Positions 9,112 to 40,521 of a stretch of DNA of 64,000 nucleotides are shown here, one piece after another. The stretch comes from a virus. The stretch lies in UHGV virus genome UHGV-1440165; one strand, given 5' to 3'. How positions within the stretch are numbered: position 1 is the first letter of the stretch; every line of letters starts with the position of its first letter. Made by a program: the position numbers and the translations under genes. Under the pieces are notes generated by a model. It did not search any database and was not told the origin of the DNA. It saw only the letters and a program-made list of their open reading frames with translations.

Positions 9112-9444
9112 CTATTTTGAAACGCCGACAAAGTCCTGGGCAATTCCCCGACAATACATCAGGTCGGTCTTCGTTTGTGGGCTGTTTTCTGCCGCCGACA
9201 TCATCATTGGCAGGTCCAGCGCATTCTCTATCTGGTCAACGCTGAACAGGTCAAGGCGCTTCAGCTCTCCCTCGAAGTCGGACAGGAGAATAGACGTGTC
9301 TTTGTCGTCCGGATGGAATTGCTGATACGTCTCCATCCAGGCAGCGCATGTATTCAGTTTGGACGGCGGGGCGGCATGTACCCCGCCGATATAGGCAACC
9401 ACGACAGCCAGGATTAACAAGAGGATGATTTTACGAGTCATCAT
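9112..9444 (-). CDS. Small secreted or membrane-anchored protein
   Basis: 110 aa; N-terminal MMTRKIILLLILAVVVAYIGGVHA reads as a signal peptide or signal anchor. Confidence 0.5.
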   Translation of the reverse strand: MMTRKIILLLILAVVVAYIGGVHAAPPSKLNTCAAWMETYQQFHPDDKDTSILLSDFEGELKRLDLFSVDQIENALDLPMMMSAAENSPQTKTDLMYCRGIAQDFVGVSK

Positions 9445-10127
9445 TCGTTCTCCTTCATCATGTTATCACAGTCGACACGAGTCTGTTGCAGCTCACGCGA
9501 CATACGAGGATCGTCGAGGTTCACACTCAGATTCGTGGCCAGATCTTTCAGGCCGTTCTGAACACGATCCTCATAATAGTGGTCGTTCTCAACCAGCCAG
9601 GCTCTGAGGCCAAGAGCGCGGGTACGCCATTGTTTCTTCAGAACACGGTCGGTTGTTTGTTCGGCACTGTACTCAAAGACCTTGATGCACTGGTTGCCAT
9701 CGTCGATAAGGTTCAGGTGACGGCGGCCAATCTGCACACCCTTCTGTAATGCCGGAGAAGGGAGCGAACGGCACTGTCTGACGGTCATGCGTCCTTGGGT
9801 GCCCATACGCCCAGTCATGATCAGATCGCTGGCCTCCATGCCTCCACGGTTAAATTCGTCGTCATTGAGGTAGCCCTTGAGGTTATAGGCTCCCTGTTTG
9901 TATCGGTTGAACTCAATCCCGGCATTGACAACAGCGGTGGAGACGTTGCCTGTGTTCCAGAGTTCAGCAAAGTTCTCTATGGATCCAGACTTATCGATTG
10001 CGACTGCCTGGGAGAACCCAGCGCAGTAGGAAAGATCAGACCACAGTTTGTCACCTGTGGTGTTCAGCTTGGCAGCGGCAGGGAGTGCCAGACCTGCAAG
10101 CACAACCCCAAGGATTAAACGTTTCAT
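9441..10127 (-). CDS. Secreted protein (signal peptide)
   Basis: ATG at 10127 preceded by AAGGAG; MKRLILGVVLAGLALPAAA is a signal peptide; mature part contains Cys residues. Track start 10193 is an upstream extension. Confidence 0.55.
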   Translation of the reverse strand: MKRLILGVVLAGLALPAAAKLNTTGDKLWSDLSYCAGFSQAVAIDKSGSIENFAELWNTGNVSTAVVNAGIEFNRYKQGAYNLKGYLNDDEFNRGGMEASDLIMTGRMGTQGRMTVRQCRSLPSPALQKGVQIGRRHLNLIDDGNQCIKVFEYSAEQTTDRVLKKQWRTRALGLRAWLVENDHYYEDRVQNGLKDLATNLSVNLDDPRMSRELQQTRVDCDNMMKENE

Positions 10128-10211
10128 GGTGATTCTCCTTATTTCATTGGATGAAATGATAGGCGGCTCACCATGCTGAGTAAAGGGTTTCAATAAACTA
10201 TCGTATTCAGA

Positions 10212-10661
10212 TTAGTACCGACTATCACTGACCGTCCGGTACTTCACACCCTTGAACTGCTTGGCAACCTTGACGAACTCCATCGCAGGCATGTCCACTT
10301 TGTAGACCTTGATGCGCTGACGGTCATCCATGTTCAGAGCAGCCACATAGCGGTGGGAGCCGTCGACCACATAGTTATCAGAAGACACCCAAACCCGACC
10401 CATGGGCTTCTTGTTTCTGATGTTCTTCATGATCTTCCAGACCTTCATCTTGTTGATTTCGTTCTGGGTGAGACGGAGCGATTTGATAGGAACCTGGCCA
10501 GCATCGATAGTGATGCCGAGTTCCTCCAGGTAGTCATGGAAGGCATCCTGTTTGTCATCGTCGATTTGTGGCATAGAAGAACGCGAAAGCCCGAGGTTTC
10601 CAACAGGAATCCTCAGGCCGTTGATAATGTTCAACCAGTCTATGAAGGAAGACATGAACAT
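10212..10661 (-). CDS. ParB-like nuclease domain protein (putative)
   Basis: Contains VVDGSHRYVAAL, resembling the ParB/sulfiredoxin-fold DGxHR motif; ATG at 10661 with GAGGTGA RBS (track start is GTG at 10670). Confidence 0.4.
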   Translation of the reverse strand: MFMSSFIDWLNIINGLRIPVGNLGLSRSSMPQIDDDKQDAFHDYLEELGITIDAGQVPIKSLRLTQNEINKMKVWKIMKNIRNKKPMGRVWVSSDNYVVDGSHRYVAALNMDDRQRIKVYKVDMPAMEFVKVAKQFKGVKYRTVSDSRY

Positions 10662-10804
10662 GAGATTCACCTCGGGATATGAATTATCCCTTAGTTAGTC
10701 GTGAAATGTCTTGGCGAGAAACCTCCCGACATATTCACAAAAGGCAATGATCACTAAACCCAATCCGCAACCAATAAGCCAACCCCAAAATTCAATGTCC
10801 ACCA

Positions 10805-11092
10805 TCACACCTCGTCTTCTTCAGGTCCACCGTCAATCAGGATACGAGCGGTGTCGAAAGTTTCCCCGCCCGTGTTCAGCAGCTTGGTCAGATCGTCAAG
10901 ATATCGGACCGTGCCAAGATCAGATGACCGCGTTATAAATTCCAGCATACCATACAGGGCTGATTTGAATCGGCTGTTGTCGATATCGTTCTTGATTTCC
11001 ATCAGGCGCAAGATGTTCTCTGACTGAGTATGGCCAACACACGCCTTGTCTCTGATCATCTCCTTGATAGAACTTCTCTCTGTTGGTGTCAT
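10805..11092 (-). CDS. Hypothetical protein
   Basis: 95 aa ORF, ATG start. Confidence 0.4.
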   Translation of the reverse strand: MTPTERSSIKEMIRDKACVGHTQSENILRLMEIKNDIDNSRFKSALYGMLEFITRSSDLGTVRYLDDLTKLLNTGGETFDTARILIDGGPEEDEV

Positions 11093-11466
11093 AACGAACC
11101 ACCCCCGACAGAGATCAAGAACTCTTCTTCAATGGTCGTGACCGGGCGGCGGTTGCGGGTTTCGATCATGAAGCCCCAGCCGCCGTCGGCGACGTTGCCA
11201 AAGGTCTTGACGCCAAAGGTCTTCTTCCCGTTGGAGCAGGCATAGAAGTCCAGGATGAACGGGCTACCCTGATTGTCGATCCCACGGTTTACGCCGTCCG
11301 CTACACAGCGCTCAATCATCTTCCCGTTCTTATACAGAACGAGGTCTTGGCCATACGCCTTGAAAGCATAAACGCCGTTGGTAGACACTCCGGTGATGAC
11401 AGGAGGAGCGGAAACAGCAGAGAAGGAAGCGCCCAGCAGGGCAACGGCGAGGATTAACTTTTTCAT
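11089..11466 (-). CDS. Secreted protein (signal peptide)
   Basis: ATG at 11466; MKKLILAVALLGASFSAVSA signal peptide; two Cys in mature part. Confidence 0.55.
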   Translation of the reverse strand: MKKLILAVALLGASFSAVSAPPVITGVSTNGVYAFKAYGQDLVLYKNGKMIERCVADGVNRGIDNQGSPFILDFYACSNGKKTFGVKTFGNVADGGWGFMIETRNRRPVTTIEEEFLISVGGGSL

Positions 11467-11490
11467 GATATAGTCTCTTGGTTTCAAATG

Positions 11491-11512
11491 GGCGGGGTAT
11501 GATTACCCCGCC
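11491..11512 (-). other. GC-rich hairpin (GGCGGGGTA-loop-TACCCCGCC) of a recurring intergenic element
   Basis: Perfect 9-bp stem; followed on the minus strand by CATTTGAAACC and the RBS/start of the 11466 gene. Confidence 0.5.
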
Positions 11513-11518
11513 GTGGGT

Positions 11519-12025
11519 TTATAGGGTAACAAGTGATACGGTAAAAACCATCGTCCCGTCAGTTGCCATTTTTCTTGAAACTGGTATGACGCGAGGCTGG
11601 CAGAATATCCATTCTTTCTCCATGGACGCCAAGTCCAGCATATCCATTTCTGATTCATCGCCTTTGTTCACAAATTTTTCTAGAGAACCATAGACATTAA
11701 GCCCCTCCGGGAGTCCGTTTCGATGTTTGTAACATATGCGGGCGACAGCTCTGGTTCCATACGATTTAGAAAATTGTTTGGCCACATGCTTCAGTTCACT
11801 GAAGCTAAGACAAGAATCCCATGTCTGAAACATGTCTCCTCGTTCAAACATCATCTCCAAACGCGCAACGTCCTCTTTAGGCAACCCGCGATAAAGTGTG
11901 GTCATCTGCGGTTCGCGTAATTCTCGCACCAGACCACGGATGGCAGGGGAAACAGTGCCAGGGCGCATGATGTGGGACTTATCATGGACGAGGTAAAATA
12001 AATCTTGAATTTGTTGATCGGTCAT
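11519..12025 (-). CDS. Hypothetical protein; possible ADP-ribosyltransferase-like
   Basis: 168 aa; ATG with GAAGGA RBS; candidate R / S-x-S / E-x-E triad (LYRG, DSCLSFS, EKE) is suggestive only. Confidence 0.35.
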   Translation of the reverse strand: MTDQQIQDLFYLVHDKSHIMRPGTVSPAIRGLVRELREPQMTTLYRGLPKEDVARLEMMFERGDMFQTWDSCLSFSELKHVAKQFSKSYGTRAVARICYKHRNGLPEGLNVYGSLEKFVNKGDESEMDMLDLASMEKEWIFCQPRVIPVSRKMATDGTMVFTVSLVTL

Positions 12026-12084
12026 GATGTATTTCCTTCATTTCAAATAGGCGGGGTAATCATACCCCACCCTAAGTTATAGAA

Positions 12085-12375: not shown

Positions 12376-12405
12376 ATAATAGGACATTCTTTAGAGGAAG
12401 TAAAC
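12376..12405 (-). promoter_or_regulatory. Sigma70-type early promoter (-35 GTTTAC, 18-nt spacer, -10 TATTAT)
   Basis: Minus-strand GTTTAC-N18-TATTAT immediately after a terminator hairpin; resembles the T4 early-promoter -35 consensus. Confidence 0.5.
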
Positions 12406-12415
12406 CCCTAAAAGT

Positions 12416-12440
12416 AAAAATCCCCAACAAACGTTGGGGA
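12416..12440 (-). terminator. Intrinsic terminator (TCCCCAAC-loop-GTTGGGGA + T-run)
   Basis: 8-bp GC stem followed on the minus strand by TTTTTA; lies downstream of the 12458..12682 gene. Confidence 0.6.
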
Positions 12441-12457
12441 TTTAATAAAAGTTATGC

Positions 12458-12731: not shown

Positions 12732-12761
12732 ATAATACGTATTTGCCTTATAGAAGTAAAC
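12732..12761 (-). promoter_or_regulatory. Sigma70-type early promoter (second copy of the GTTTAC-N18-TATTAT cassette)
   Basis: Near-identical copy of the 12376..12405 promoter. Confidence 0.5.
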
Positions 12762-12771
12762 CCCTAAAAGT

Positions 12772-12796
12772 AAAAATCCCCAACGTTTGTTGGGGA
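12772..12796 (-). terminator. Intrinsic terminator (second copy, loop inverted)
   Basis: Same TCCCCAAC/GTTGGGGA stem as at 12416..12440 with the loop sequence reverse-complemented; T-run on the minus strand; downstream of the ACP-like gene. Confidence 0.6.
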
Positions 12797-12802
12797 CTTC
12801 TG

Positions 12803-13168: not shown

Positions 13169-15370
13169 TTAGATTTTGATCTCTTTCTCTGCCAGTTCGG
13201 CAGTGACCTTGTACTTCACGCCATCCACTTCAACTTCCATGGTTGACTCTTCCAGGTCGAGGTCGGTGAACCAGCCATGGCCAGCAACGATACCATACAC
13301 CACTTTAGACAGCGTCTTGTTCAGGGCGCGGACTTCAGTGATGGCCGCCTTGGCAGCAGCGTCGATCCAGTTTTCGATCAGCTGTTTCTGTACGGCTTCA
13401 GGCACAGCAGTAATAGCCGGGGACTTCACGAATGCGTCGTATTCTTTCAGTGCATTGGCGATGAACATATCACCCGCATTGAGAGCCTTTTTATCAGCAA
13501 TCTTCTTCTGTACCGCAGCGATGGACGGCAGAGAAGACGCCCCGGCGATCTTAACGTTCAGCTCACGGCTCATGTAGACGTCCGTGGAGTCCTTCAGCTC
13601 GGTCTTCGGTGAGAAGCCATAATCGCGGATACCAACACTAGACAGGTATTCTGCGGCCGCAGCGCCGTACTGAATAGCCAGACCTTTGGCATTACCCTTA
13701 CCAACCAGGGCGTCGCGATAGAACTTCAGTACCTTCTGCTTGCCTTTCAGGGCTTCCAGGCGAACGTTGTCGGCAAAGAACTGTGCAGCACTGATGTTCT
13801 TGACCATCGCACGGTTGACCAGCGGTACGCTTTCCAGGTTCAGAATGAACACTTCCGGACCAACGAACACGTGGACGCCCATTTCGATCAACTTCTGCAC
13901 AACTTCGATATCAGCCTTGAACGGCAGGGTCTTCACATTGATGATGCCGTCTTTGACGATGGTGTAGTTGCGCCACTGGAATGTGTCCAATTCTTCGGGT
14001 AGACCGAACTTCTTCTGAGCGAATTCGGGCACCGCCACAGTTCCATGCTGGATTGTACGCACACTGATGTTCGGGCGCTCAGAGTTATAGACCAGGTCGC
14101 TGATTGAGATCACGCCCAGATCGTTAGCAGGTTCAAACGACGGTGTCCACTCTTCGTGCTCAGCCAGCTTGAGAGCGAGGGCTTTACGCTCTTCTTTGGA
14201 CTTGGCGTTCGCGATTTCTTCCGCCAGCTTGTCTTCGGTATCATCGGCTTTCTGCACAGTACCGCGACCAATGCTCTTGTAGGAGAACATCGGGTGCTTG
14301 GTGGCAACAGACACGCCAGCTTCGGCCAGGTACGTCAGCACATCAACGACAGTGGTCGCATCTTCAGCCGGAACCATATTGTAGTCGATACCGTCCACGC
14401 CGCGCAGCTGATCATCAACGATGGCCTGGGTCAGATCAACTTTGATGTTGGAGTAGTCCTGCTTGGTGAAGCAGTTGCTGTACTGTTTGATGAAGCGGAC
14501 GTCGCCCGTTTTCTTCAGCGCAGCCCACACCAGGTCGGCGTCCATGATGTGTACGCCGTAGAACGCCAGCACGTATGCTGCCTGGATGTCCGTCAGCGCA
14601 TCAAGCTGGTCGATCATGTTAGGGTTGACGACCCACAGCTTCGTGACGCTCTCAGGGATGCTCACGTGGCCGATAGGATGGTCTTCATCCGGCTGTACCG
14701 CCAGCACGGTTGCTACGCCGTTTTCAACGTAGATGGCGTGAGTGTACACCACAGGAACGTCAACACGAACCTTCGGCACCGAGGACTTCAACACGTTTTC
14801 CAGCTCAGTCTGATATTCAGTCTGTCCTTCGGCGAACACGTGAGTCGCGCCGGAACGCTCGGACATCTGGGCCAGGAGTTCGCGGTTACAGTACCAGCCG
14901 TATTCGATAAAGGTGATGTTATCGAAAACAAATGGCAAGGTTTCGGCGACGGCCAGGATTTCATTGGAGCGCCAGCAGTTGTCATAACCATCGGTCATGA
15001 ACGCCAGGTTGTTGACGTAGCCGGGTTTCTTCAGGCTACGCGCAGTATCTACCGCGAGACCCAGGGGTTCGACGAAGCCAGTGCAACCGGATGGTTGCAG
15101 GAAGCGGTCGATCAGTTTGTTCAGCTCGCTCAGGTCAGACGCAGCACTGACCTGGCGGCCAGCGAACACAGTACCAAAGTCGCCACGGGATGAGAAGTAC
15201 AGGAGGCTCACTGTGTCTTCCGGTTTCACCAGGGAAGGCAGGTTCTCCTTCAGGTGCTTACGGACTTCAGGGAGCGCCCGGTACATGGAACCGGAAATGT
15301 CCACAACGATTACATGGTTGGACGGGGCAGCAGTCGCAACCGCATTCTTAAACTCCAGGGATTCAATCAT
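13169..15370 (-). CDS. von Willebrand factor A (vWA) domain protein
   Basis: MIDAS-type motif VVDISGSM near the N-terminus and later TDGYDN; about 733 aa from ATG at 15370 (MIESLEF...). Track start 15433 overlaps a small upstream ORF. Confidence 0.65.
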   Translation of the reverse strand: MIESLEFKNAVATAAPSNHVIVVDISGSMYRALPEVRKHLKENLPSLVKPEDTVSLLYFSSRGDFGTVFAGRQVSAASDLSELNKLIDRFLQPSGCTGFVEPLGLAVDTARSLKKPGYVNNLAFMTDGYDNCWRSNEILAVAETLPFVFDNITFIEYGWYCNRELLAQMSERSGATHVFAEGQTEYQTELENVLKSSVPKVRVDVPVVYTHAIYVENGVATVLAVQPDEDHPIGHVSIPESVTKLWVVNPNMIDQLDALTDIQAAYVLAFYGVHIMDADLVWAALKKTGDVRFIKQYSNCFTKQDYSNIKVDLTQAIVDDQLRGVDGIDYNMVPAEDATTVVDVLTYLAEAGVSVATKHPMFSYKSIGRGTVQKADDTEDKLAEEIANAKSKEERKALALKLAEHEEWTPSFEPANDLGVISISDLVYNSERPNISVRTIQHGTVAVPEFAQKKFGLPEELDTFQWRNYTIVKDGIINVKTLPFKADIEVVQKLIEMGVHVFVGPEVFILNLESVPLVNRAMVKNISAAQFFADNVRLEALKGKQKVLKFYRDALVGKGNAKGLAIQYGAAAAEYLSSVGIRDYGFSPKTELKDSTDVYMSRELNVKIAGASSLPSIAAVQKKIADKKALNAGDMFIANALKEYDAFVKSPAITAVPEAVQKQLIENWIDAAAKAAITEVRALNKTLSKVVYGIVAGHGWFTDLDLEESTMEVEVDGVKYKVTAELAEKEIKI

Positions 15371-15533
15371 CGTTATTGCCTTCTTCAGGGTTGTCATCGG
15401 CCTCACCTTCCGGATTGACCAGCATGTGTTCAACGAATTCGCGATTCAGCTCAATCTGGCTCATCAGCGCATCCGTCGGAGTAAAGCGGCGGTCGAGGTT
15501 ATCGACACCCGCACGTTTAAATGGTTTGGACAT
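15363..15533 (-). CDS. Small hypothetical ORF (56 aa) between NAMPT-like and vWA genes
   Basis: ATG at 15533 with GAGG RBS; its TGA stop overlaps the vWA start (ATGATTGA); acidic C-terminus. Not in ORF track (under 60 aa). Confidence 0.4.
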   Translation of the reverse strand: MSKPFKRAGVDNLDRRFTPTDALMSQIELNREFVEHMLVNPEGEADDNPEEGNNDD

Positions 15534-29349: not shown

Positions 29350-29356
29350 TATTTAG
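29350..29356 (-). promoter_or_regulatory. Late-promoter-like motif (minus strand CTAAATAT)
   Basis: CACTAAATATCCC about 26 nt upstream of the UvsW ATG. Confidence 0.4.
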
Positions 29357-30099
29357 TGGTTCGGCCATACTCCGTTCTGTTCTTTGTCCATACGATGGTA
29401 CAGGCGGACACGCTCAAACATCTTGCTCAGGATGTCATCACGGTGGAACTCGATGATGGTTGGGTTCAAAGAGGATTCGTTGGCGATGACGTTTATCAAC
29501 CGGGTGATCTTTACGCCAAACATCTGCTGGAACATGACCGAGTACAGGCAAAGCTGAATGCTGTAGTCCTCGATCATTCCGCGAGTCTTGATGGTATTGG
29601 AAGTCTTGAAGTCAATGATGGCTGGTTTACCCTCATACACCCCGATGAGGTCTACGCGCCCAGCGAGGCCAAGGACTTCGCTATATAATGGGATCTCCTG
29701 AGCATAGATCTTGCTCATCTTGTTCAGGTAAGGGAAGAGTTGCTTGAACATGAACATGTATTCGCCAGCCGCCTCAAGCACTTCTTTCATCGGGCGATTC
29801 TTCAAATACAGTTCACAGGCGAGGTGCAACTTCTCACCACGGTCGGCACACCGCATGGTCTCTAAATCGGCGGCCTCGTGTCCTAGCTTGTCCCTCCAGG
29901 CTTCTAGCCATTCATGGTCCCCAGTACGCCCAAGCATCGTCGTGACCGAAGTCAGTTTGACGCCAGTTGGTGAGACGTAGTGGCGACCATTCTCCGTCGT
30001 GACACATTCCAGTTCTTTGTATGGGAGTTCATACTGCTGGAATGTGTGGTGACGATTTTCGAAGTCGTTCAGCTTACGAAGAGCCTGGAGGGATGCCAT
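29353..30099 (-). CDS. PD-(D/E)XK family nuclease (RecB/Cas4-like fold)
   Basis: 248 aa; motif RVDLIGVYEGKPAIIDFKTS fits D...(D/E)xK nuclease core. Confidence 0.55.
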   Translation of the reverse strand: MASLQALRKLNDFENRHHTFQQYELPYKELECVTTENGRHYVSPTGVKLTSVTTMLGRTGDHEWLEAWRDKLGHEAADLETMRCADRGEKLHLACELYLKNRPMKEVLEAAGEYMFMFKQLFPYLNKMSKIYAQEIPLYSEVLGLAGRVDLIGVYEGKPAIIDFKTSNTIKTRGMIEDYSIQLCLYSVMFQQMFGVKITRLINVIANESSLNPTIIEFHRDDILSKMFERVRLYHRMDKEQNGVWPNH

Positions 30100-30114
30100 T
30101 ATATATGATCCTTG

Positions 30115-30567
30115 TTATGCACCATCAAGATATTTTCTCCATTCAATAGCGTTCTTCACTTCGTAGCCCAGCTTGTTCAGGCGGTCCAAACAGCTTTCGA
30201 TAAATTTCACTTTGGCTTTCTGTTCCTGAAGCAGGATAGACAGTTCGACGTAATCTTCGTCGGCCTTGATCCACACATCGATCTCTGACTTCAGAGGACG
30301 GACTTTCAATGGACGCTCGGCATAGATGTTGGGTGGTAACTCCCCGGCGTAATAGCGACGCAGGTAAAGATCAATCTGTCGGAAGCGCCCATTGAGGAAT
30401 TCCAGATAGCGCCCTTCACGCAGGTAATGGCGCTGCACGACCATCCATGAGCGCCCGACCTTCAGTGAGATCTGATCGAGGTTCATGTCTTCTGGGTTCA
30501 CCGCAACCAGCGGCTCCAGCTCATCCATGATGTCCTCGGTCTTCATTGTTTGTAGTTGCTCTGTCAT
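30115..30567 (-). CDS. UvsY-like recombination mediator (putative)
   Basis: 150 aa; similar size, YYAG segment (compare UvsY YYSG) and genomic position near UvsW as in T4. Confidence 0.4.
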   Translation of the reverse strand: MTEQLQTMKTEDIMDELEPLVAVNPEDMNLDQISLKVGRSWMVVQRHYLREGRYLEFLNGRFRQIDLYLRRYYAGELPPNIYAERPLKVRPLKSEIDVWIKADEDYVELSILLQEQKAKVKFIESCLDRLNKLGYEVKNAIEWRKYLDGA

Positions 30568-30609
30568 AACATATCCCAGCTTGTCAATGTCATAAAATTA
30601 TACCGCACA

Positions 30610-31110
30610 TCACGGATTAGAATCTATCTCACGGCCCACAATGGTGGGGACCATCTCCTGGAACTTGAACGTCACAGTTGAAACCAGCTGAGGAACAGCA
30701 GCGTCCACGTCGACCAACACGTTGTCAAGAGCCGTCGGGCGGGAGTCTTGTAACACCAGAGTCAGGCCAATCGGGCGGTTCAGGTTGTCCAGCAGGTCAA
30801 TGGTGATATCCTTGCTCACAGGCAGATCCTTCCCGACGTTGGAGCGAATCCAGTTGTGTAACATCAGCCACGTTTTCCAGTCCTCATCGATTACGAAAGT
30901 AAATACGACGGGGTCATATGTGATACGTTCCGACGGGATGGAAACGAGAACGTCACCAGGTGATGGACCGTCGATGCCCTCGGAATACAAGCCTGGAATG
31001 CTGAAGTCATGGATGTTACGGGATACAAGTACAAGGTCTCCGATAGATAAACGCCACTTATCGGACGCCGCAAAATTAGGGTTTTCGTTTTTGAATTGTA
31101 CATCAGACAT
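30610..31110 (-). CDS. Hypothetical protein
   Basis: 166 aa ORF, ATG start. Confidence 0.45.
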   Translation of the reverse strand: MSDVQFKNENPNFAASDKWRLSIGDLVLVSRNIHDFSIPGLYSEGIDGPSPGDVLVSIPSERITYDPVVFTFVIDEDWKTWLMLHNWIRSNVGKDLPVSKDITIDLLDNLNRPIGLTLVLQDSRPTALDNVLVDVDAAVPQLVSTVTFKFQEMVPTIVGREIDSNP

Positions 31111-31139
31111 AATAGCACCTTTTGCTGTGGAGATATTTT

Positions 31140-31790
31140 GTGACCCTGATGCGCGGGATCAGTAGATTGATGTTGGCATGTGCGATGCTCTTACTCACGA
31201 GCTGTCGCATCTTTGTCACGCCGATCATTTCTGTTTCCGAATTGTGGAACCCGGAAGTGCGCACCCTACCAGTCACCATATCGGCTAATGTCCAGACTTG
31301 CAACAAAGGAATCTTGGACGGCATCGTCCAAGAGTTCCAGAACTTCCAGAAGCTCGTGCCCCTGGGTTGCTTCGAGGAGAACACCAACACCCTCAAACCG
31401 TATTGGAAGACAACCATTCCACTTCTGCGCCGGGGCGATGAAGGGAAGATACCTTACCTGTCTGCCAGTATTTATTACTCCCAGAACAACAGCATCATCA
31501 TCACATTCAATCCATCATTCTATAAAAAACTGAAGCAGCACACTGTGGGGCGTGTTGATGTTGGATCAGAAGTGATTGTTACATTCAAGATCGTGAACGA
31601 CACAGGCAAGCCCGTCCGGATCGCAACTCAGGGCGTGTTCGTCAACAATGATGCCGTTGGGAATGAGATGAACATCTTTGAAGTGAAGCCAGAGGGAACG
31701 ATCTGGGTCAGACTGAGCAATGTGGGAGTGAACTCCCTACTGTTGGATGGCATCGAACCAGTGGGAGTTCTTCCGGCGCGGGAGCGCTGA
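31140..31790 (+). CDS. Putative lipoprotein on plus strand
   Basis: GTG at 31140 preceded by GGAGA (ATG at 31149 also in frame); basic n-region, hydrophobic LMLACAMLLL, lipobox LTSC; convergent with 31791..32519. Confidence 0.5.
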   Translation: MTLMRGISRLMLACAMLLLTSCRIFVTPIISVSELWNPEVRTLPVTISANVQTCNKGILDGIVQEFQNFQKLVPLGCFEENTNTLKPYWKTTIPLLRRGDEGKIPYLSASIYYSQNNSIIITFNPSFYKKLKQHTVGRVDVGSEVIVTFKIVNDTGKPVRIATQGVFVNNDAVGNEMNIFEVKPEGTIWVRLSNVGVNSLLLDGIEPVGVLPARER

Positions 31791-32519
31791 TTACTTCAGG
31801 GCGCTCTTCAGATTATCGGAACCGATGTTGTTGATGACGCCTCCGGCACACAGATCTTTAGCCCACTCGGACAGAACATTGGCAAACGAGAAGTTCAGAC
31901 ACTTGCTGACCATGTCTTGGATGTGGGCTAACTCTGCAGCAATACCATTGGCGATGTCTTGACCGATTTGTGCCACCTGAGCAATAGCAGTATTGATGTA
32001 CCCGGTAACTTCGGCGGCCAGTGCCTGGATCTTTGCCAGGCCAGCGCTCACGCCCTGCGCAACTAACTCAGCCAATTCGGCCATCTTGGCAGTAACAGTG
32101 CTGAGAGCGCTCTCCATAGCCCCGATCCACTGGCGGCCAAGAGTCTGTATGACACCGAAGGCATTGTTGATCAGATCACAGTTAGTCGGCTCTCGCTGGA
32201 TCGACTTCAGGCCGGATTTATACGACACGGAAGTCCCGATGCGGGAATAAGCCTCATTGACGGTCTGGTCGCCGTAATTGTTCAGAGTGGTGAGGCTGGT
32301 GTCGGCAGAGGTGAACATCGTGTTTGTTTCGTTGAGTTTGGCCGTGGTTAGCCCACCTGCCGTCAGAGCGCCCTGGATTTGCGTATCGCCAGTGTTAGCC
32401 AATGAGGCTGTAGTCGCCTTGCCACTGGTGATTAAACCATGAGACGTGCTGCTGAGGGACGGGAGAGGATTGTTAAATGCGTTACCCTGCTCAAGGGCGT
32501 CATAGATCTGTGCGTTCAT
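31791..32519 (-). CDS. Hypothetical late protein (Ala/Thr-rich)
   Basis: 242 aa, ATG start; preceded by a late-promoter-like motif. Confidence 0.5.
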   Translation of the reverse strand: MNAQIYDALEQGNAFNNPLPSLSSTSHGLITSGKATTASLANTGDTQIQGALTAGGLTTAKLNETNTMFTSADTSLTTLNNYGDQTVNEAYSRIGTSVSYKSGLKSIQREPTNCDLINNAFGVIQTLGRQWIGAMESALSTVTAKMAELAELVAQGVSAGLAKIQALAAEVTGYINTAIAQVAQIGQDIANGIAAELAHIQDMVSKCLNFSFANVLSEWAKDLCAGGVINNIGSDNLKSALK

Positions 32520-32547
32520 AAGAAAATACCCCCATGGATGATGGGGG

Positions 32548-32554
32548 TATTTAG
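32548..32554 (-). promoter_or_regulatory. Late-promoter-like motif (CCCTAAATACCCCC)
   Basis: About 29 nt upstream of the 32519 start; embedded in a CCCCCA...TGGGGG inverted repeat. Confidence 0.45.
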
Positions 32555-32766
32555 GGATCAGGGTAGTTTGTAAACGAAGTTGGACCAGAACTTCTGAGCG
32601 AACTTCTTGGCATAGACCTTCCGGCTGACGTACTCGCCATCCTTCAGATCGTTGTATGTCTCGTGCGCTACTGCGGCAAGGAAGTACGCCGTGAAGATAT
32701 AGCAGAACAGATTGATGACAAACATGATGTATCTCCGCTGTGTGGACTCAAATTATTTATGACAGG

Positions 32767-33189
32767 TTACAAAAGGCGCTTGGTTTTGGGTTTACCCATT
32801 AGAGTGATATCCACAGGGAGACCTGCCTTCTTCAGCCTGTTTATCATGTCCAGGGTGCCAGTGGACGAACCATCCCACATCGCAATCGGATACACTTCCA
32901 GCTTGGTCTGCCTGGCGAGTTCCAATGCCTTGTCTAACATGTCCTGATTGCGTTTGTTGCCCATCCCTTTGCCATATTTCTCATAATAGCCGTCCGGGAT
33001 TGGCATAGGAGTGACATCAACATAATTGATTTCAGCCCAATCACGACAAATCGTGTCGACGCCCGTGGCTTCGCCCTCGATCAACGTATAGACTTCATGA
33101 GGATCGAGGAGTTCATCCAGCTTGGCGAAGACCTTATCCCGCTCGGTAATTGAGCGGGAACCAGTGATGACAACGATATACTTCTTCAT
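32767..33189 (-). CDS. Rossmann-like SLOG/DUF2493-type protein (putative)
   Basis: KKYIVVITGSRS near the N-terminus resembles the SLOG/DprA-like GSR motif; first ATG at 33189, RBS weak (track start 33234). Confidence 0.35.
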   Translation of the reverse strand: MKKYIVVITGSRSITERDKVFAKLDELLDPHEVYTLIEGEATGVDTICRDWAEINYVDVTPMPIPDGYYEKYGKGMGNKRNQDMLDKALELARQTKLEVYPIAMWDGSSTGTLDMINRLKKAGLPVDITLMGKPKTKRLL

Positions 33190-33194
33190 AGAAC

Positions 33195-33539
33195 TCACAG
33201 CACCCCAAGATTGCCGATGACATACAGGGAGCACAGGGGAGCCCCTGACGAACGGGGTTCGATTGTCATCCCGCTCAGGCGGATCAGTTCCAGCAAGCCG
33301 TCGGTGGTCTGATACCCGCGTGTCGAACCGTTCGGACGGTATAGCTCCAGCTCGGTTCGCCCTTCCTTTAATGCGTTACGGATGCGAGTGAACACACTGT
33401 GGCCGCCGAACTTCTGTTTCAGAAGATCCAGCTTGGTGACCAGGCGGCGCGTTTTGCGTGGCTTACGCTCGCTCGGCTTTTCGAATTTGACGATGTGGGG
33501 GATCTCCACGGATTTGTTCAGTTTGGTGTCTACTGCCAT
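33195..33539 (-). CDS. Hypothetical basic protein
   Basis: 114 aa ORF, ATG start. Confidence 0.4.
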   Translation of the reverse strand: MAVDTKLNKSVEIPHIVKFEKPSERKPRKTRRLVTKLDLLKQKFGGHSVFTRIRNALKEGRTELELYRPNGSTRGYQTTDGLLELIRLSGMTIEPRSSGAPLCSLYVIGNLGVL

Positions 33540-33608
33540 GGTAAAGTCCTCTATTTGTAGGGGATAGGGTATGAGTTTAACATACCCCGTTCAAAGGTTT
33601 AGAACAAA

Positions 33609-33905
33609 TCAAGCACCAAGCAATTGGGTGACATAACCCTTTTCACCACGTTTGTACGGCTTGCCCGCATTGATGCGACCCAGAATGTCAGTCGCGAATT
33701 TGGTAGCATCAGCGATAGCCTGCTTTTTGGTATAGCGCTCGTTCACGCCGTGCTCGTTCTTGGAGCCGTCGATGCCGAGGCAAGAAACATAAGTGTCACC
33801 GACATAAAGGGAATACACATATGAGTTTTGGCTGTTGGCCCATGCTTCAACGATAAAGCGAGAATCGATTACCAGAGCAGTTTTGGTGGTTGGCATATTG
33901 TTCAT
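33609..33905 (-). CDS. Hypothetical protein
   Basis: 98 aa ORF, ATG start; preceded by an early promoter embedded in a hairpin. Confidence 0.45.
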   Translation of the reverse strand: MNNMPTTKTALVIDSRFIVEAWANSQNSYVYSLYVGDTYVSCLGIDGSKNEHGVNERYTKKQAIADATKFATDILGRINAGKPYKRGEKGYVTQLLGA

Positions 33906-33954
33906 GGTGTAGTTCCTTCATTTCAGAGTCAGTGTTGTGCTGCTTATGGAATGA

Positions 33955-33986
33955 AGTATACGGGGTTTATTGAAGAAGTAAACCCC
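33955..33986 (-). promoter_or_regulatory. Early promoter (GTTTAC-N17-TATACT) overlapping a terminator-type hairpin
   Basis: Hairpin GGGGTTTA-loop-TAAACCCC (about 33962..33986); the -35 GTTTAC is part of the stem; -10 TATACT at about 33955..33960 on the minus strand. Confidence 0.5.
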
Positions 33987-34007
33987 GTTTATTGAATTAT
34001 TTTAAGA

Positions 34008-34244
34008 TTATTTGAATCGGTCAGGAAGGGTGTCGTGCAGTTCAGCTGACATGACTAAGAACTTGCCGTCTTTGGTCGGAAAGCAATAGTCTTTCTTCAC
34101 GATCTTCAGGTGCTCTGCGGTGGCCCGAACACACTCATCGGTGATGTCGGTCTTATTACCAACCCACATGGACTTGACCGTGTCTAGAGTGCCCTGGTAA
34201 ATGGTTCCACCCAATGGGCTTGCGCCGATAGTTTTGATTCTCAT
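34008..34244 (-). CDS. Hypothetical protein
   Basis: 78 aa ORF. Confidence 0.4.
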   Translation of the reverse strand: MRIKTIGASPLGGTIYQGTLDTVKSMWVGNKTDITDECVRATAEHLKIVKKDYCFPTKDGKFLVMSAELHDTLPDRFK

Positions 34245-34252
34245 GGTTGACC

Positions 34253-34690
34253 TCAGTTAATACGGAACAAATGTGGATAACCGCCAGGATGACCTTCCCC
34301 GGTGACAAATACTTCGAACTTCGAACCCTTGATTAGGCCAGGCAGATTGCCAGAGTCCAGCAGTTCTCGGATCTGATCCATCGCCAGCATCCAGTTCTTG
34401 GCAGGTTCGGCCTCTGCCTCCCCACGGTTGATTTTGATCACACCCTCTGAATAATACTTCCCGCTGTCTTTCATGTAGTACAGCTTGATGTGGATATACT
34501 GAGGGGAAGGGACCAAGCGCCAGCCTTCATCAATCAGATCCTGACGATCATTGTCCAGCGACTGGTAATCGATATCACCGGATGCCAGGCCGTAGCTGCG
34601 CATGTAGCGGAACTTCTCGACGCGGTCTTTCACATCGGAGATAAAGAACTCCTTCGTGGCCGGACTGATGAAGATGTATTTCTCTGCCAT
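34253..34690 (-). CDS. Hypothetical protein
   Basis: 145 aa ORF. Confidence 0.45.
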   Translation of the reverse strand: MAEKYIFISPATKEFFISDVKDRVEKFRYMRSYGLASGDIDYQSLDNDRQDLIDEGWRLVPSPQYIHIKLYYMKDSGKYYSEGVIKINRGEAEAEPAKNWMLAMDQIRELLDSGNLPGLIKGSKFEVFVTGEGHPGGYPHLFRIN

Positions 34691-34702
34691 AATATAGATC
34701 CT

Positions 34703-34960
34703 TCAGTTCAAAATGGGATGTTCGTCGATGTCGGACTGTGTTGCAATCTCCCAGCGGACGATATTTTCGGGTGTGATGAAATCACGGTTCAGGTGAGAGG
34801 ATGGCACATACACCATTGTGTTGACCATGAAGTAACGCTGCTCGTTGTTCCAGGAGTCAACATAAGCCTCAATAAGGCATACTTCGATCACTTCGCCTTT
34901 CGGCTTCTTCACAATCTTTTTCAGGTACATGACACAGCCCTCGGATAGTAGACGGGGCAA
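34703..34960 (-). CDS. Hypothetical protein
   Basis: 85 aa ORF. Confidence 0.4.
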   Translation of the reverse strand: MPRLLSEGCVMYLKKIVKKPKGEVIEVCLIEAYVDSWNNEQRYFMVNTMVYVPSSHLNRDFITPENIVRWEIATQSDIDEHPILN

Positions 34961-34990
34961 TAATACCTCTCGCCCCGTTATTGAAAACTG

Positions 34991-35302
34991 TTAGTCTTTA
35001 GCAGGATCTTCGCAGTCTGGATGATAGAAGCTACCCAGCTTGCTGTGGATAACGTTCAGATGGTTGGTGATAGCTTCAATGATATCGTCCTGGGAGGACT
35101 GGATATCAATGATGGCACCGATCAGACCCGGCATAGGCTGTTGTGACAATTTGTCTGGATTCGCTGTCGGGAAATCACCGTCCAGTTGAACGCGGATACC
35201 CTTGATGTCGGCGAGGACATCGTACAGCCGCTCTTTCTGGGTACGAGCGTTTTTCAGGATTTGGGATACAGACTGCTCTGTTGATACGAGGTTACTTGAC
35301 AT
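34991..35302 (-). CDS. Hypothetical protein
   Basis: 103 aa; ATG at 35302 with AGGAG RBS that lies inside an 11-bp-stem hairpin. Confidence 0.45.
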   Translation of the reverse strand: MSSNLVSTEQSVSQILKNARTQKERLYDVLADIKGIRVQLDGDFPTANPDKLSQQPMPGLIGAIIDIQSSQDDIIEAITNHLNVIHSKLGSFYHPDCEDPAKD

Positions 35303-35310
35303 GATTTATA

Positions 35311-35348
35311 CTCCTGTTGTATGGTTGACTGTATAAGCATACAACAGG
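35311..35348 (-). other. Strong hairpin (CCTGTTGTATG...CATACAACAGG) that includes the RBS of the downstream gene
   Basis: 11-bp perfect inverted repeat with a 14-nt loop; one arm contains the AGGAG of the 35302 gene. Confidence 0.5.
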
Positions 35349-35402
35349 TGGGTGTATTGAACAACGCGGGTATTAAATCGACACGATAAAGGAATTAACT
35401 CG

Positions 35403-36875
35403 TCAGACCAAGACGTATTTTATCAGGCCACAGTTCCAAATCCTGACCAGACCTGCTTCAGATGCCAGTTGACTCTCCGTTTTACCTTCGACGTCATACC
35501 CCATGCGAGCAAATGAACCTTTTCTGAAACCGAATTTGTGCTCACGCATAAATGTCCCTGGTTTGTGGTATTTGTAGTCTGGCTTCTGCACTTCCTCTTC
35601 TACGAATCCGTGGGATAGGTAAATGTTGGACAATCTGCTTACAACACACCTATCCCCAAAGGAATAGATTGTGGTGTCGATAAATTTTCTTCTGAAGTGT
35701 GAAAGAAGTTTACTGAATGCCCCGTGACAGTCATGGGAAGCAAATCTGACCAATTCCAGGCCATCTTTCCTTTTAGTGAACAGCATCACGGCTTGTATGA
35801 CCCCACTCTTGTCAATTAACGACAAATGGTAGGTGGAAGAAACGGAACCTTGTATGTGGTGTTTGTCTAAAAACTCCCTCAAGCCATTTATATTTCCCCA
35901 AACGACTTTGTGTTGGCGAGCATATGACGCAGGCGTTTTAATGCCAAGTTTAGCTTTCAGAAGAGATTCGACCACTTCCTGTTTCTCAACCCATTCATCT
36001 TCCCAGATGTGGATCAACTGGATACCCTGAGTTTCACATATTTCAGTCTTTTCCAGGTGATAATGTTTCTCTTTAAAAACTTCTGAATGCCAGTACAGGC
36101 CATTAAATTCAATCGCCAATTTATGTTCATGGCAATAGATATCTAGTTGTTTACCGGATAATATGCTGTAATCAGAAACAGTGTTCACAACTCCCATTGA
36201 GGTGAGAAACTCAGATATTTCCTTTTCATAAGAAGATTTCTTGTTCCTGATAGAACCATTGCTGAACAACGCACGTTTTAGTATGGTCGAGTTTTTCATA
36301 GGGTTGTCAACACCGTAACGTTCTTGTAACGTTGCCAACGCCTTCTCCCTCACACCAGGTAATTGTAGTGTGGAGCAGCTTCCGTATTTGGATATATTCG
36401 AAGTCTCTATGGCTTTACGACCAATCCCACCTTTACACATAGAAACCTGATAACATTCTTCAGAACAATATGTTCTGTAATCTTTATCATTGATGTAAAA
36501 GTTGGTTTCCTTGGAACACACCGGGCATATTTTCACGGTCCTATTGTGTAGCCAAGCTGTGACTTTACAAGCCAAATCTTGTAGGGTGTTGTGGGCATTG
36601 GCGAACACTAAAAGGTCTACATTGATGTGCTTCATAAGCAGTTCAGATTTGCATTTTTGGATATCCAATTTGTTGTTCTTGGTAAACATATTTTTATAGA
36701 AAAATTGGCGATATGATTCCTCATCAGACAATGTCTTCACTGCTTCAAGGAAACCTTCCGGGAGGTTCTTTAGGGTGTTCGATGCGAAGGTCTTGCAAGC
36801 ATCTGAACAAAATTTCTTGTCTTTCCTGGCAGATTTAAATTGTTCATGGCAGATACCACAGATTACCTGATACAT
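35403..36875 (-). CDS. Putative freestanding homing endonuclease (zinc-finger + PD-(D/E)XK-like nuclease domain)
   Basis: 490 aa; N-terminal Cys clusters (CGICHEQF...C..C; CPVCSKE); DIYCHEHKLAIEFNGLYWH fits a D...E-x-K nuclease motif; inserted just downstream of the major capsid gene. Confidence 0.4.
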   Translation of the reverse strand: MYQVICGICHEQFKSARKDKKFCSDACKTFASNTLKNLPEGFLEAVKTLSDEESYRQFFYKNMFTKNNKLDIQKCKSELLMKHINVDLLVFANAHNTLQDLACKVTAWLHNRTVKICPVCSKETNFYINDKDYRTYCSEECYQVSMCKGGIGRKAIETSNISKYGSCSTLQLPGVREKALATLQERYGVDNPMKNSTILKRALFSNGSIRNKKSSYEKEISEFLTSMGVVNTVSDYSILSGKQLDIYCHEHKLAIEFNGLYWHSEVFKEKHYHLEKTEICETQGIQLIHIWEDEWVEKQEVVESLLKAKLGIKTPASYARQHKVVWGNINGLREFLDKHHIQGSVSSTYHLSLIDKSGVIQAVMLFTKRKDGLELVRFASHDCHGAFSKLLSHFRRKFIDTTIYSFGDRCVVSRLSNIYLSHGFVEEEVQKPDYKYHKPGTFMREHKFGFRKGSFARMGYDVEGKTESQLASEAGLVRIWNCGLIKYVLV

Positions 36876-36930
36876 AATTATTCTCCTCTATATGGTATCT
36901 AGTATAACCCATTTGATAATATGAACAAAT

Positions 36931-36956
36931 AAAAACCCCGCCGAAGCGGGGTTTTA
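36931..36956. terminator. Strong intrinsic terminator (bidirectional architecture) after the major capsid gene
   Basis: AAAAA-CCCCGC-CGAA-GCGGGG-TTTT. Confidence 0.7.
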
Positions 36957-36980
36957 ATACGTAAGATGTTGTTTTAATTA

Positions 36981-38312: not shown

Positions 38313-38394
38313 TCCTTACATTGATATTCAGTTAAGTTGAAATTACTTAGTAGTTCAAAATCAAGCCCCCTTTCGAGGGCTGTGGCTGCTAAAA

Positions 38395-39273: not shown

Positions 39274-39300
39274 GATTATTTCCTTCTGAACGATTTTCAG

Positions 39301-39307
39301 TATTTAG
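39301..39307 (-). promoter_or_regulatory. Late-promoter-like motif (CACTAAATACTG)
   Basis: About 28 nt upstream of the scaffold gene start. Confidence 0.45.
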
Positions 39308-39318
39308 TGAGGCTGAAT

Positions 39319-39987: not shown

Positions 39988-39994
39988 TCGCTCC

Positions 39995-40300: not shown

Positions 40301-40312
40301 GATACATTCCTC

Positions 40313-40483: not shown

Positions 40484-40521
40484 GTTCGTATCCTCTAAAA
40501 TGTTTTCTATACTTAGTTGAA

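What the first reader, a model, noticed from the sequence alone, without database searches (positions are those of the whole stretch)
9112..11466. Cluster of small secreted or membrane-anchored proteins in the early region
Three ORFs (9112..9444, 9441..10127, 11089..11466) begin with clear signal peptides and two contain paired cysteines. Early-expressed periplasmic proteins in virulent phages are uncommon and may act in superinfection exclusion, envelope remodelling or inhibition of periplasmic host factors.
Basis: partly seen in the sequence, partly recalled or inferred. Interest (0 to 1): 0.5.

Follow-up and report, generated by a model that had tools for sequence, protein, structure and literature searches.

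The report
Exported phage proteins mislabelled as spanins
Three conserved genes of this Vi1-like (Ackermannviridae) phage do encode proteins sent to the space between the host's two membranes. Two of them form a gene pair that databases call "spanins" (outer-membrane lysis proteins), but here they lack the membrane anchors that define spanins, so their real job is unknown.

Summary
ORFs A (9112..9444), B (9441..10127) and C (11089..11466), all on the minus strand, start with classical n-h-c signal peptides. They are the only such genes I found among about 62 coding-strand genes in the 64-kb window. All are under strong purifying selection, and all their cysteines are invariant (A has 2, B has 4, C has 2).

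The window is an Ackermannviridae genome. B and A are a translationally coupled pair (4-nt overlap) found in every family member examined. Public records label them i-spanin and o-spanin. That label traces to one bioinformatic call in phage Marshall, whose A ortholog has a lipobox.

- **Lipobox:** only 3 of 21 genomes have one; this window does not.
- **B:** it has a cleavable AXA-type signal rather than a transmembrane anchor.
- **A:** it folds confidently (pLDDT 87) into an acidic five-helix bundle, unlike proline-rich o-spanins.
- **Homology:** no Pfam, NCBIfam, PADLOC or PDB match was found for any of the three, and no fold match for A (the only one modelled usably); the family is restricted to Ackermannviridae.
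- **Promoters:** a conserved sigma70-like promoter precedes B, and the late-promoter-like motif is absent from this part of the genome.

My best reading is a periplasmic binding or inhibitor module, possibly for superinfection exclusion. The function is untested.

The parts
9441..10127 (-). Gene B: 228-aa exported protein. Signal peptide is residues 1-19 (nt 10071..10127, MKRLILGVVLAGLALPAAA|K). The mature protein is 209 aa, hydrophilic (pI 6.2), with four invariant Cys. It is labelled 'i-spanin' in Marshall, ChubbyThor and UniRef.
   Evidence: 86% mean column identity over 30 clusters; distant homologs all carry AXA signals; dN/dS 0.05-0.07; SignalP note in LIMEstone1. The AF2 model is unusable (pLDDT 41.6).
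9112..9444 (-). Gene A: 110-aa exported protein. Signal or possible signal-anchor is residues 1-24 (nt 9373..9444, ...GGVHA|AP). The mature protein is 86 aa, acidic (pI 4.3), a five-helix bundle with invariant C33 and C98. It is labelled 'Rz-like spanin' or 'o-spanin' (phrog_3843). This phage has no lipobox.
   Evidence: pLDDT 86.8; no informative fold match; lipobox in 3 of 21 genomes.
9441..9455 (-). Translational coupling of B and A. B's stop codon overlaps A's start (ATGA, 4 nt), and A's Shine-Dalgarno sequence AAGGAG (9450..9455) lies inside B's last codons (..KENE*).
   Evidence: The 4-nt overlap is kept in 20 of 21 IMG/VR genomes and in the distant contig L005; in distant contig L004 the overlap is a single base.
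10156..10184 (-). Sigma70-like promoter candidate for the B-A operon: TTTACT-N17-TATCAT.
   Evidence: 4 matches against 0.45 expected, all intergenic on the coding strand. The leader is conserved across Kuttervirus, Agtrevirus, Limestonevirus and Taipeivirus. The same type is annotated 'putative early promoter' in LIMEstone1. Its function is inferred, not shown.
10125..10175 (-). RNA stem that pairs B's Shine-Dalgarno sequence and AUG with a 5' arm lying upstream of the -10 box. Only read-through transcripts from upstream would carry the arm and be masked.
   Evidence: inverted repeat I15; MFE -20.4 kcal/mol, z = -4.5, 0 of 200 shuffles fold as well. No covariation support, because the leader is nearly identical in close relatives and differs in Menlow.
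11089..11466 (-). Gene C: 125-aa exported protein. Signal peptide is residues 1-19 (nt 11410..11466, ...SFSAVS|APP). Invariant C54 and C77; composition suggests a beta-rich fold. It is an accessory gene: present in Agtrevirus, Limestonevirus and Taipeivirus, truncated in Marshall, absent from CBA120.
   Evidence: (phrog_5474, unknown function).
10805..11092 (-). 95-aa acidic protein with no signal peptide, overlapping C's stop by 4 nt (phrog_4458, unknown function). It is co-transcribed with C.
10695..10808 (-). 37-aa single-pass membrane peptide ORF (MMVDIEFWGWLIGCGLGLVIIAFCEYVGRFLAKTFHD), overlapping the previous gene by 4 nt. It would be a fourth envelope-targeted product of the cluster.
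   Evidence: An ortholog is found in MK-13. Small 'membrane protein' genes are annotated at the same place in Marshall and Menlow.
10212..10670 (-). 152-aa protein lying between C and B, with no signal peptide. It has a weak ParB-like hit, and its LIMEstone1 ortholog is annotated as a virion protein confirmed by mass spectrometry.
11490..11512 (-). G+C-rich hairpin between the ADP-ribosyltransferase-like gene and C. It is part of a 57-nt leader repeat (11463..11519 and 12022..12078).
   Evidence: D1, I2.

Best explanation
B and A are a co-transcribed, translationally coupled pair of Sec-exported, disulfide-stabilised, hydrophilic proteins that work together in the periplasm of the infected cell. 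C is an accessory third exported protein, and a 37-aa membrane peptide lies in the same cluster.

Shown or strongly supported:
- The genes are real and under strong constraint.
- Each has a classical signal peptide.
- The B-A pairing holds in every family member examined.
- A is a compact acidic helical bundle.
- Neither protein in this phage carries the anchors of a spanin.

Inferred:
- Expression comes from B's own host-type promoter before or independently of late genes.
- The cysteine pairs form disulfides.
- A and B form a complex.

Mechanism I commit to (about 0.3 on its own): the pair is a periplasmic binding or inhibitor module. It neutralises an activity that reaches the periplasm, most plausibly the tail-associated lysozyme or the ejection machinery of superinfecting sibling phages. 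That would make it a functional analogue of T4 Spackle. This would fit three observations: very high sequence conservation (because the target is conserved), indifference to whether A is soluble or lipid-anchored, and a location in a region that in relatives holds other envelope and exclusion genes.
For: **Signal peptides and conservation boundary:**. Independent SignalP notes appear in the LIMEstone1 record.

**Distant homologs:** distant B and A homologs (31-48% identity) keep AXA signals and the overlapped B-then-A order.

**Selection:** dN/dS is 0.05-0.2.

**Core-gene status:** both are listed among 114 core genes (PMC10892097). A is present in 282 phage records.

**Structure and chemistry:** the A model has pLDDT 86.8, with 5 helices. 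Mature A has pI 4.3 and 5.8% Pro; B has GRAVY -0.69.

**Anchor lability:** a lipobox is present in 3 of 21 genomes, a Ser replaces the Cys in one close variant, and the others have signal-peptidase-I-type (SPase I) signals. From my own knowledge, lysozyme inhibitors likewise exist both as soluble PliC and lipoprotein MliC.

**Promoter evidence:**

**Neighbourhood in relatives:** a P22-type 'superinfection exclusion' gene, a Band_7 lipoprotein, a LysM protein and small membrane peptides. The family also encodes a tail lysozyme.
Against: - B has no usable model.
- Exclusion genes are usually accessory and fast-evolving, whereas B and A are core and slow-evolving. That pattern fits an essential life-cycle step such as lysis better.
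- No expression, localisation or interaction data exist.
- A's h-region in this phage is long (17 very hydrophobic residues), so it may stay tethered to the inner membrane instead of being released.
Confidence: 0.45

Rival explanations
1. The database annotation is right in substance: B and A are an atypical two-component spanin, or another outer-membrane-disruption device, used at the last step of lysis.
For: - The gene order, overlap and periplasmic cysteines match the 'separated/overlapped' spanin architecture. Marshall and MK-13 orthologs of A carry a lipobox.
- Core-gene status and strong constraint fit an essential step.
- Kongari et al. list Vi01, CBA120, SFP10, Maynard, AG3, PhaxI and RC-2014 as spanin-less, and my scan of the MK-13 genome found no canonical spanin. 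The family therefore needs some means of breaching the outer membrane.
- COILS found a coiled coil in the LIMEstone1 B ortholog.
Against: - The lipobox is absent in 18 of 21 genomes, including this window.
- B has a 13-16-residue h-region followed by AXA, i.e. a cleavable signal rather than a transmembrane domain. The same holds in all distant homologs.
- In SpaninDB the Marshall pair is an outlier: a singleton family with the longest periplasmic length, 0 coiled coils, and an o-spanin that is 56% helical.
- A is a folded acidic bundle with 5.8% Pro.
- Two soluble proteins cannot bridge and fuse two membranes.
- There is no late-promoter-like motif nearby. In MK-13 the holin is about 10 kb away and the endolysin about 21 kb away.
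Confidence: 0.17
2. The proteins manipulate a host periplasmic or envelope component for the phage's own benefit, unrelated to exclusion or lysis. Examples would be inhibiting periplasmic nucleases, proteases or autolysins, or altering O-antigen or capsule export so that progeny are not trapped on debris.
For: Near-invariance of A and B across phages of Salmonella, Escherichia, Klebsiella, Dickeya and Serratia suggests a target conserved across Enterobacterales. These phages bind surface polysaccharides through several tailspikes.
Against: Neither protein shows an enzyme signature or a match to any domain family. No host homologs were found among 1.8 billion representative proteins.
Confidence: 0.2
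3. A and/or B regulate lysis timing from the periplasm, in the manner of the T4 antiholin RI, which senses superinfection.
For: The family encodes rIIA and rIIB. A is a small exported helical protein of similar size to RI (the comparison with RI is from my own knowledge).
Against: The annotated holin is 53 aa and has no periplasmic domain for such a protein to bind. A's signal is strongly hydrophobic, unlike a SAR (signal-anchor-release) domain of the kind RI uses. No similarity to RI was found in the PDB searches.
Confidence: 0.08
4. The hydrophobic N-termini are coincidental and the proteins stay in the cytoplasm, or the ORFs are not expressed.
For: No experimental localisation exists, and no dedicated predictor could be run here.
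Against: The n-h-c/AXA layout is kept through complete sequence turnover of the signal region. Cysteine pairs are invariant. SignalP calls were made by other authors. Purifying selection is strong.
Confidence: 0.03

Closest known systems
Two-component spanins (lambda Rz/Rz1, T4 PseT.3/PseT.2), the current database label
   Same: Two adjacent, overlapping genes with the larger one first. Both products are directed to the envelope and both have periplasmic cysteines. A minority of A orthologs carry a lipobox.
   Different: This phage has no lipobox, nor do 18 of 21 relatives. B has a cleavable signal rather than a type II transmembrane domain. A is a folded acidic helix bundle rather than a short proline-rich chain. 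The combined periplasmic length is the longest in SpaninDB, and no coiled coil was predicted there. There is no functional test.
T4 Spackle (Sp, gp61.3), periplasmic superinfection-exclusion protein (properties from my own knowledge)
   Same: A small, signal-peptide-bearing, all-helical, disulfide-containing periplasmic protein of a virulent myovirus that has a tail lysozyme. It sits among replication genes.
   Different: No sequence or detectable fold similarity. Spackle acts alone, whereas A always comes with B. The function of A-B is untested.
PliC/MliC-type periplasmic lysozyme inhibitors (properties from my own knowledge)
   Same: One family occurring both as a soluble periplasmic protein and as an outer-membrane lipoprotein. 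This is the same anchor lability seen for A.
   Different: Those are beta-barrel proteins with defined motifs. No Pfam match was found for A, B or C.
Type II secretion pilotins PulS/OutS
   Different: The scores are in the noise range for four-helix bundles, and there is no sequence similarity.

Membership tests
Two-component spanin: i-spanin (for B) | N-terminal uncleaved type II transmembrane domain anchoring the protein in the inner membrane | tested here: not met
   B has a hydrophobic run of 13-16 residues (L4-A19) ending in P-A-A-A|K. The distant homologs end in TANA|G, PVHA|R, STSA|W and HASA|A. SignalP in the LIMEstone1 record called a signal peptide and no transmembrane domain. My test is rule-based only, because no predictor could be run here.
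Two-component spanin: i-spanin (for B) | Periplasmic domain dominated by coiled-coil helices | tested here: inconclusive
   SpaninDB reports 0 coiled coils and 35% helix for the Marshall ortholog. COILS gave a 'coiled coil present' note for LIMEstone1 ORF100. The AF2 model is too poor to judge (pLDDT 41.6); only residues 144-227 look helical.
Two-component spanin: o-spanin (for A) | Lipoprotein signal with a lipobox [LVI][ASTVI][GAS]C | tested here: not met
   The window sequence is ..AYIGGVHAAPP, with no Cys before residue 33. A lipobox is present only in Marshall-type (LIAGC) and MK-13-type (LMAGC) variants: 3 of 21 IMG/VR genomes and a minority of the 37 protein clusters.
Two-component spanin: o-spanin (for A) | Short, proline-rich, largely unstructured mature chain | tested here: not met
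   Mature A is 86 aa with 5.8% Pro and pI 4.3. It is a five-helix bundle with pLDDT above 90. The Marshall ortholog has the highest helicity (56%) among the separated o-spanins shown in the retrieved part of the SpaninDB table.
Two-component spanin (pair) | Adjacent, overlapped or embedded genes with the i-spanin first | tested here: met
   There is a 4-nt overlap with B first, conserved in 20 of 21 genomes.
Two-component spanin (pair) | Required for outer-membrane disruption; complements lambda Rz/Rz1 defects | not testable with these tools
   No experimental report was found. The label comes from CPT annotation of Marshall and from SpaninDB, and was then spread through PHROGs and RefSeq.
T4 Spackle-like exclusion protein (for A) | Sequence or fold homology to Spackle | tested here: not met
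T4 Spackle-like exclusion protein (for A) | Binds and inhibits the tail lysozyme; blocks superinfection | not testable with these tools
   This needs binding and plating assays.
Sec-exported periplasmic proteins (A, B, C) | n-region with positive charge, h-region, c-region with small residues at -3 and -1, and no further transmembrane segment | tested here: met
   For A in this phage, a retained signal-anchor cannot be excluded: the h-region is 17 residues, and LIMEstone1 carries a 'signal peptide and transmembrane domain' note.

The most novel reading that the evidence does not exclude
Ackermannviridae, which lack canonical spanins, use the core B-A pair as a new, anchor-independent periplasmic system. 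It would either breach the outer membrane or control when it is breached. Examples are soluble proteins that accumulate and detach or destabilise the outer membrane once the endolysin has removed the cell wall. If so, the occasional lipobox would be an optional tether, not a requirement.
Probability: 0.12. Interest if true: 0.8.

Novelty: new variant of a known kind. Interest (0 to 1): 0.4.

Why it matters
**Annotation.** The 'Rz-like spanin' and 'i-spanin' names now attached to hundreds of Ackermannviridae genomes rest on a lipobox present in a small minority of them. The names are repeated in papers and in phage-therapy genome descriptions as if the lysis system were understood. It is not.

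**Biology.** A core, strongly constrained pair of exported proteins with no relatives outside the family marks an unstudied step of the infection cycle at the cell envelope. These phages are widely considered for biocontrol of Salmonella, E. coli O157, Klebsiella and Dickeya. If the pair mediates exclusion, it bears on cocktail design. If it mediates lysis, it would help answer how 'spanin-less' phages open the outer membrane.

Tried and rejected
1. **A as a paralog of B.** A first hhalign run aligned both cysteine pairs of A with B's N-terminal domain (E = 0.054). With more diverse profiles the signal vanished (E = 0.16 over 8 columns). Rejected.
2. **Fold of B.** The AF2 model was unusable (pLDDT 41.6), so no fold search was run on it. 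Both AF2 jobs are spent.
4. **Family libraries.** Pfam, NCBIfam and PADLOC gave nothing for A, B or C. PHROGs gave only the family's own clusters.
5. **Wider homologs.** The word-index search, the exhaustive profile search of 1.8 billion representatives and an IMG/VR scan found only Ackermannviridae-type contigs.
6. **L005's third exported protein as a C homolog.** No similarity was found.
7. **T4 late promoter TATAAATA.** There is one chance-level hit, so it is not the late motif here. CTAAATA is the better candidate.
8. **Expression or functional data in the literature.** Literature searches found no transcriptome for this family and no functional test of these genes.
9. **Canonical spanin elsewhere in a complete relative (MK-13).** None was found.
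Full report
**What the window is.** The region 8,000-13,200 matches 278 phage records, nearly all Ackermannviridae (Vi1-like myoviruses of Salmonella, Escherichia, Shigella, Klebsiella, Dickeya and Serratia). The best matches are Salmonella phage pSal-SNUABM-02 (93%) and Shigella phage MK-13 (90%). All genes between 7.4 and 15.4 kb lie on the minus strand. The neighbours are a DinG-like helicase, an HU-like protein, an Alt-like ADP-ribosyltransferase, an acyl carrier protein and a vWFA protein.

**Checking the observation.** The three ORFs are present as described. I call them A (9112..9444, 110 aa), B (9441..10127, 228 aa) and C (11089..11466, 125 aa).
- Each chosen ATG has a Shine-Dalgarno sequence. 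The longer TTG-initiated forms run into conserved non-coding leaders.
- Each protein begins with two or three basic residues, a hydrophobic core, and small residues at -3 and -1: A ..GGVHA|AP, B ..LPAAA|K, C ..SAVS|AP. No other hydrophobic segment follows.
- No signal-peptide predictor is available here, so I used three indirect tests.
  1. In 39 orthologs of A, the first 20-30 residues change freely in sequence and length yet keep this layout. Near-invariance starts at the predicted cleavage site.
  2. The most distant homologs of B (E = 1e-38 and 2e-33 in the profile search) and the A-type proteins encoded next to them (27-31% identity to A) have unrelated but equally canonical signals.
  3. 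The LIMEstone1 authors ran SignalP and TMHMM. They annotated the A ortholog 'putative signal peptide and transmembrane domain' and the B ortholog 'putative signal peptide'.
- All cysteines are conserved: two in A, four in B, two in C.
- dN/dS is 0.05-0.2 against saturated synonymous divergence.
- A rule-based scan found no other signal-peptide gene on the coding strand of the window. The clustering probability is 0.015, or 0.0014 genome-wide.
- A 37-aa membrane peptide ORF (10695..10808) sits between C and B.

**What public records say, and where that comes from.** PHROGs files A under 'Rz-like spanin' (phrog_3843). RefSeq records repeat this. B is called 'i-spanin' in Marshall, ChubbyThor and UniRef.
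- The source is the Texas A&M annotation of phage Marshall and the SpaninDB survey (PMC6139136). Its supplementary tables list exactly the B and A orthologs as a 'separated' two-component spanin.
- In that survey the Marshall pair is an outlier throughout. It is a singleton family with the longest combined periplasmic length (300 residues), no predicted coiled coil in the i-spanin, and an o-spanin that is 56% helical.
- The same paper lists Vi01, SFP10, Maynard, SJ2, SJ3, AG3, CBA120, ECML-4, PhaxI and RC-2014, all of which I know to be Ackermannviridae, as 'spanin-less'.
- No experimental test was found.

**Testing the spanin label.**
- Marshall's A ortholog reads MMKCKILLLMVLIAGC|VNAAPP, a perfect lipobox. 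MK-13 has LMAGC.
- This window has AYIGGVHAAPP. CBA120 has SFQVVA|TP, RC-2014 AGAYA|AP, Menlow SNALA|VP, phiMAM1 GAAQA|AG and Bue1 TASA|QP. One close variant has AGS in place of AGC.
- Among 21 complete IMG/VR genomes, 3 have a lipobox and 18 do not. B lies immediately upstream, with a 4-nt overlap in 20 of the 21.
- B's hydrophobic run is 13-16 residues followed by AXA in every lineage. That describes a cleavable signal, not a membrane anchor.
- AlphaFold2 models A with high confidence (mean pLDDT 86.8, mature domain above 90) as five helices. The mature chain is acidic, at pI 4.3, with 5.8% proline.
- Of the defining spanin features, only gene adjacency is met. Two soluble proteins cannot join and fuse two membranes. 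The canonical mechanism therefore does not apply to this phage or to most of its relatives.

**What else can be said about the proteins.**
- None of A, B or C matches Pfam, NCBIfam, PADLOC or any PDB sequence.
- B could not be modelled (pLDDT 41.6).
- An exhaustive profile search of 1.8 billion representatives found ten B-type proteins, all from phage-like contigs.
- In phiMAM1 and Bue1, B is only 126-165 aa, corresponding to the N-terminal domain with the motif SYCAGF...GG(M/R)...C. The conserved core is therefore that domain plus A.
- At the deepest divergence A keeps C33, W36, Y40 and H44, which are spaced to lie on one face of helix 1. It also keeps E58, K62, D77, T91 and C98.
- A suspected A/B paralogy did not survive better profiles.
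- C is accessory: absent from CBA120 and truncated in Marshall.

**Expression signals.**
- The 84-nt leader before B is almost identical in Kuttervirus, Agtrevirus and Limestonevirus and is recognisable in Taipeivirus. It contains TTTACT-N17-TATCAT.
- This pattern occurs four times in the window against 0.45 expected, always intergenic on the coding strand. The copy at 12376..12404 is the element annotated 'putative early promoter' in LIMEstone1.
- A different motif, CTAAATA, occurs ten times (3.1 expected), always on the coding strand and only from 29,350 onward. Most copies lie directly upstream of structural genes. It is a good candidate for the late promoter of this gp55-encoding phage, and it is absent near A, B and C.
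- The leader also folds (-20.4 kcal/mol, z = -4.5) so that B's Shine-Dalgarno sequence and AUG pair with a segment upstream of the -10 box. Transcripts reading through from upstream would be masked, while those from B's own promoter would not. From my own knowledge, this recalls the arrangement at T4 gene e.
- All of this is inference. No transcriptome exists for the family. The LIMEstone1 paper says early, middle and late genes are interspersed. Two neighbours (the 152-aa protein and the vWFA protein) are annotated as confirmed structural proteins in the LIMEstone1 record, whose paper identified structural proteins by mass spectrometry.

**Genome context.**
- In MK-13 the annotated holin lies about 10 kb from the pair and the endolysin about 21 kb away. 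No canonical spanin is found elsewhere.
- In relatives, the stretch between the vWFA gene and the HU/helicase genes also carries a P22-type 'superinfection exclusion' gene, a Band_7 lipoprotein, a LysM protein and small membrane peptides. It is thus a region rich in envelope-directed functions.

**Interpretation.**
- Secure: A, B and C are exported. B and A are a coupled, family-wide, strongly constrained pair. In this phage they are not canonical spanins.
- Most likely mechanism: a periplasmic binding or inhibitor module. One reason is that the function evidently tolerates A being either soluble or lipid-anchored. Another is that extreme conservation across hosts implies a conserved partner.
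- I favour exclusion of superinfecting relatives by blocking their tail lysozyme or DNA entry, as T4 Spackle does. I put this at only about 0.3.
- Its weakness is that core, slowly evolving genes fit an essential step better. That keeps a lysis-related role alive: about 0.17 as some non-canonical outer-membrane device, and 0.08 as a timing regulator.
- A host-directed role is also possible (about 0.2).

**Novelty and interest.** The genes themselves are catalogued, so this is not a discovery of new ORFs. What is new is the evidence that the widely propagated spanin label does not hold, and that the family has a core exported pair with no characterised relative. I rate it a new variant of a known kind (phage periplasmic effector pairs) with moderate interest (0.4). 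Interest would rise sharply if the pair proved to be how these 'spanin-less' phages deal with the outer membrane.

Noticed in passing
window 29350..62548, minus strand (29350, 32548, 39301, 39657, 42852, 45573, 49856, 56355, 59519, 62542): The motif CTAAATA occurs 10 times against 3.1 expected. All copies are on the coding strand, and most lie just upstream of structural genes. None lies in the 1-29 kb replication block. It is probably this phage's late-promoter core, replacing T4's TATAAATA, which has only one chance-level hit.
   Followed up: partly
window 12397..12443 and 12753..12799; promoters at 12376..12404 and 12732..12760: A 47-nt cassette is repeated at 89% identity. It consists of a hairpin terminator (TCCCCAAC..GTTGGGGA, with the loop inverted between copies) fused to a TTTACT-N17-TATTAT promoter, and it sits in front of two small genes. 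A fourth promoter of this type is at 33955..33982.
   Followed up: partly
window 11463..11519 and 12022..12078: A 57-nt leader is repeated at 74% identity. It consists of a G+C-rich hairpin (again flipped between copies), then YATTTGAAA, a Shine-Dalgarno sequence and ATG. It sits in front of gene C and of the ADP-ribosyltransferase-like gene. There is no T-run, so it may be a processing or stability element rather than a terminator.
   Followed up: no
window 31140..31790, plus strand: A 216-aa ORF lies on the strand opposite to all its neighbours. It has a good lipoprotein signal (MTLMRGISRLMLACAMLLLTSC|R) and is annotated as a real gene in MK-13 (gp168). It has no C-terminal transmembrane domain, so it is not a unimolecular spanin. 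PADLOC gave no match.
   Followed up: partly
window 10212..10670, minus strand: This 152-aa protein has a weak ParB-like N-terminal hit and matches part of a 740-residue PHROG profile. Its LIMEstone1 ortholog (ORF101) and the vWFA protein (13169..15433) are annotated as virion proteins confirmed by mass spectrometry. The region is therefore not purely 'early'.
   Followed up: no
window 11519..12025, minus strand: This 168-aa protein matches only the C-terminal catalytic part of the T4 Alt-type RNA polymerase ADP-ribosyltransferase profile (phrog_832, positions 1270-1425 of 1480).
   Followed up: no
L002 (Shigella phage ChubbyThor) 3630..4460: A NUMOD3 homing-endonuclease gene is inserted immediately upstream of the B ortholog, displacing the conserved leader. 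In that record B is annotated from the longer upstream start.
   Followed up: no
L005 2745..3077 (metagenomic Ackermannviridae-like contig): A third signal-peptide protein with two cysteines directly follows the B-A pair. It is unrelated in sequence to C. This hints that extra exported proteins are repeatedly recruited next to the pair.
   Followed up: partly
window 9441..9455: The invariant C-terminus of B (..MMKENE) is under double constraint, because these codons contain the Shine-Dalgarno sequence and start codon of A.
   Followed up: yes
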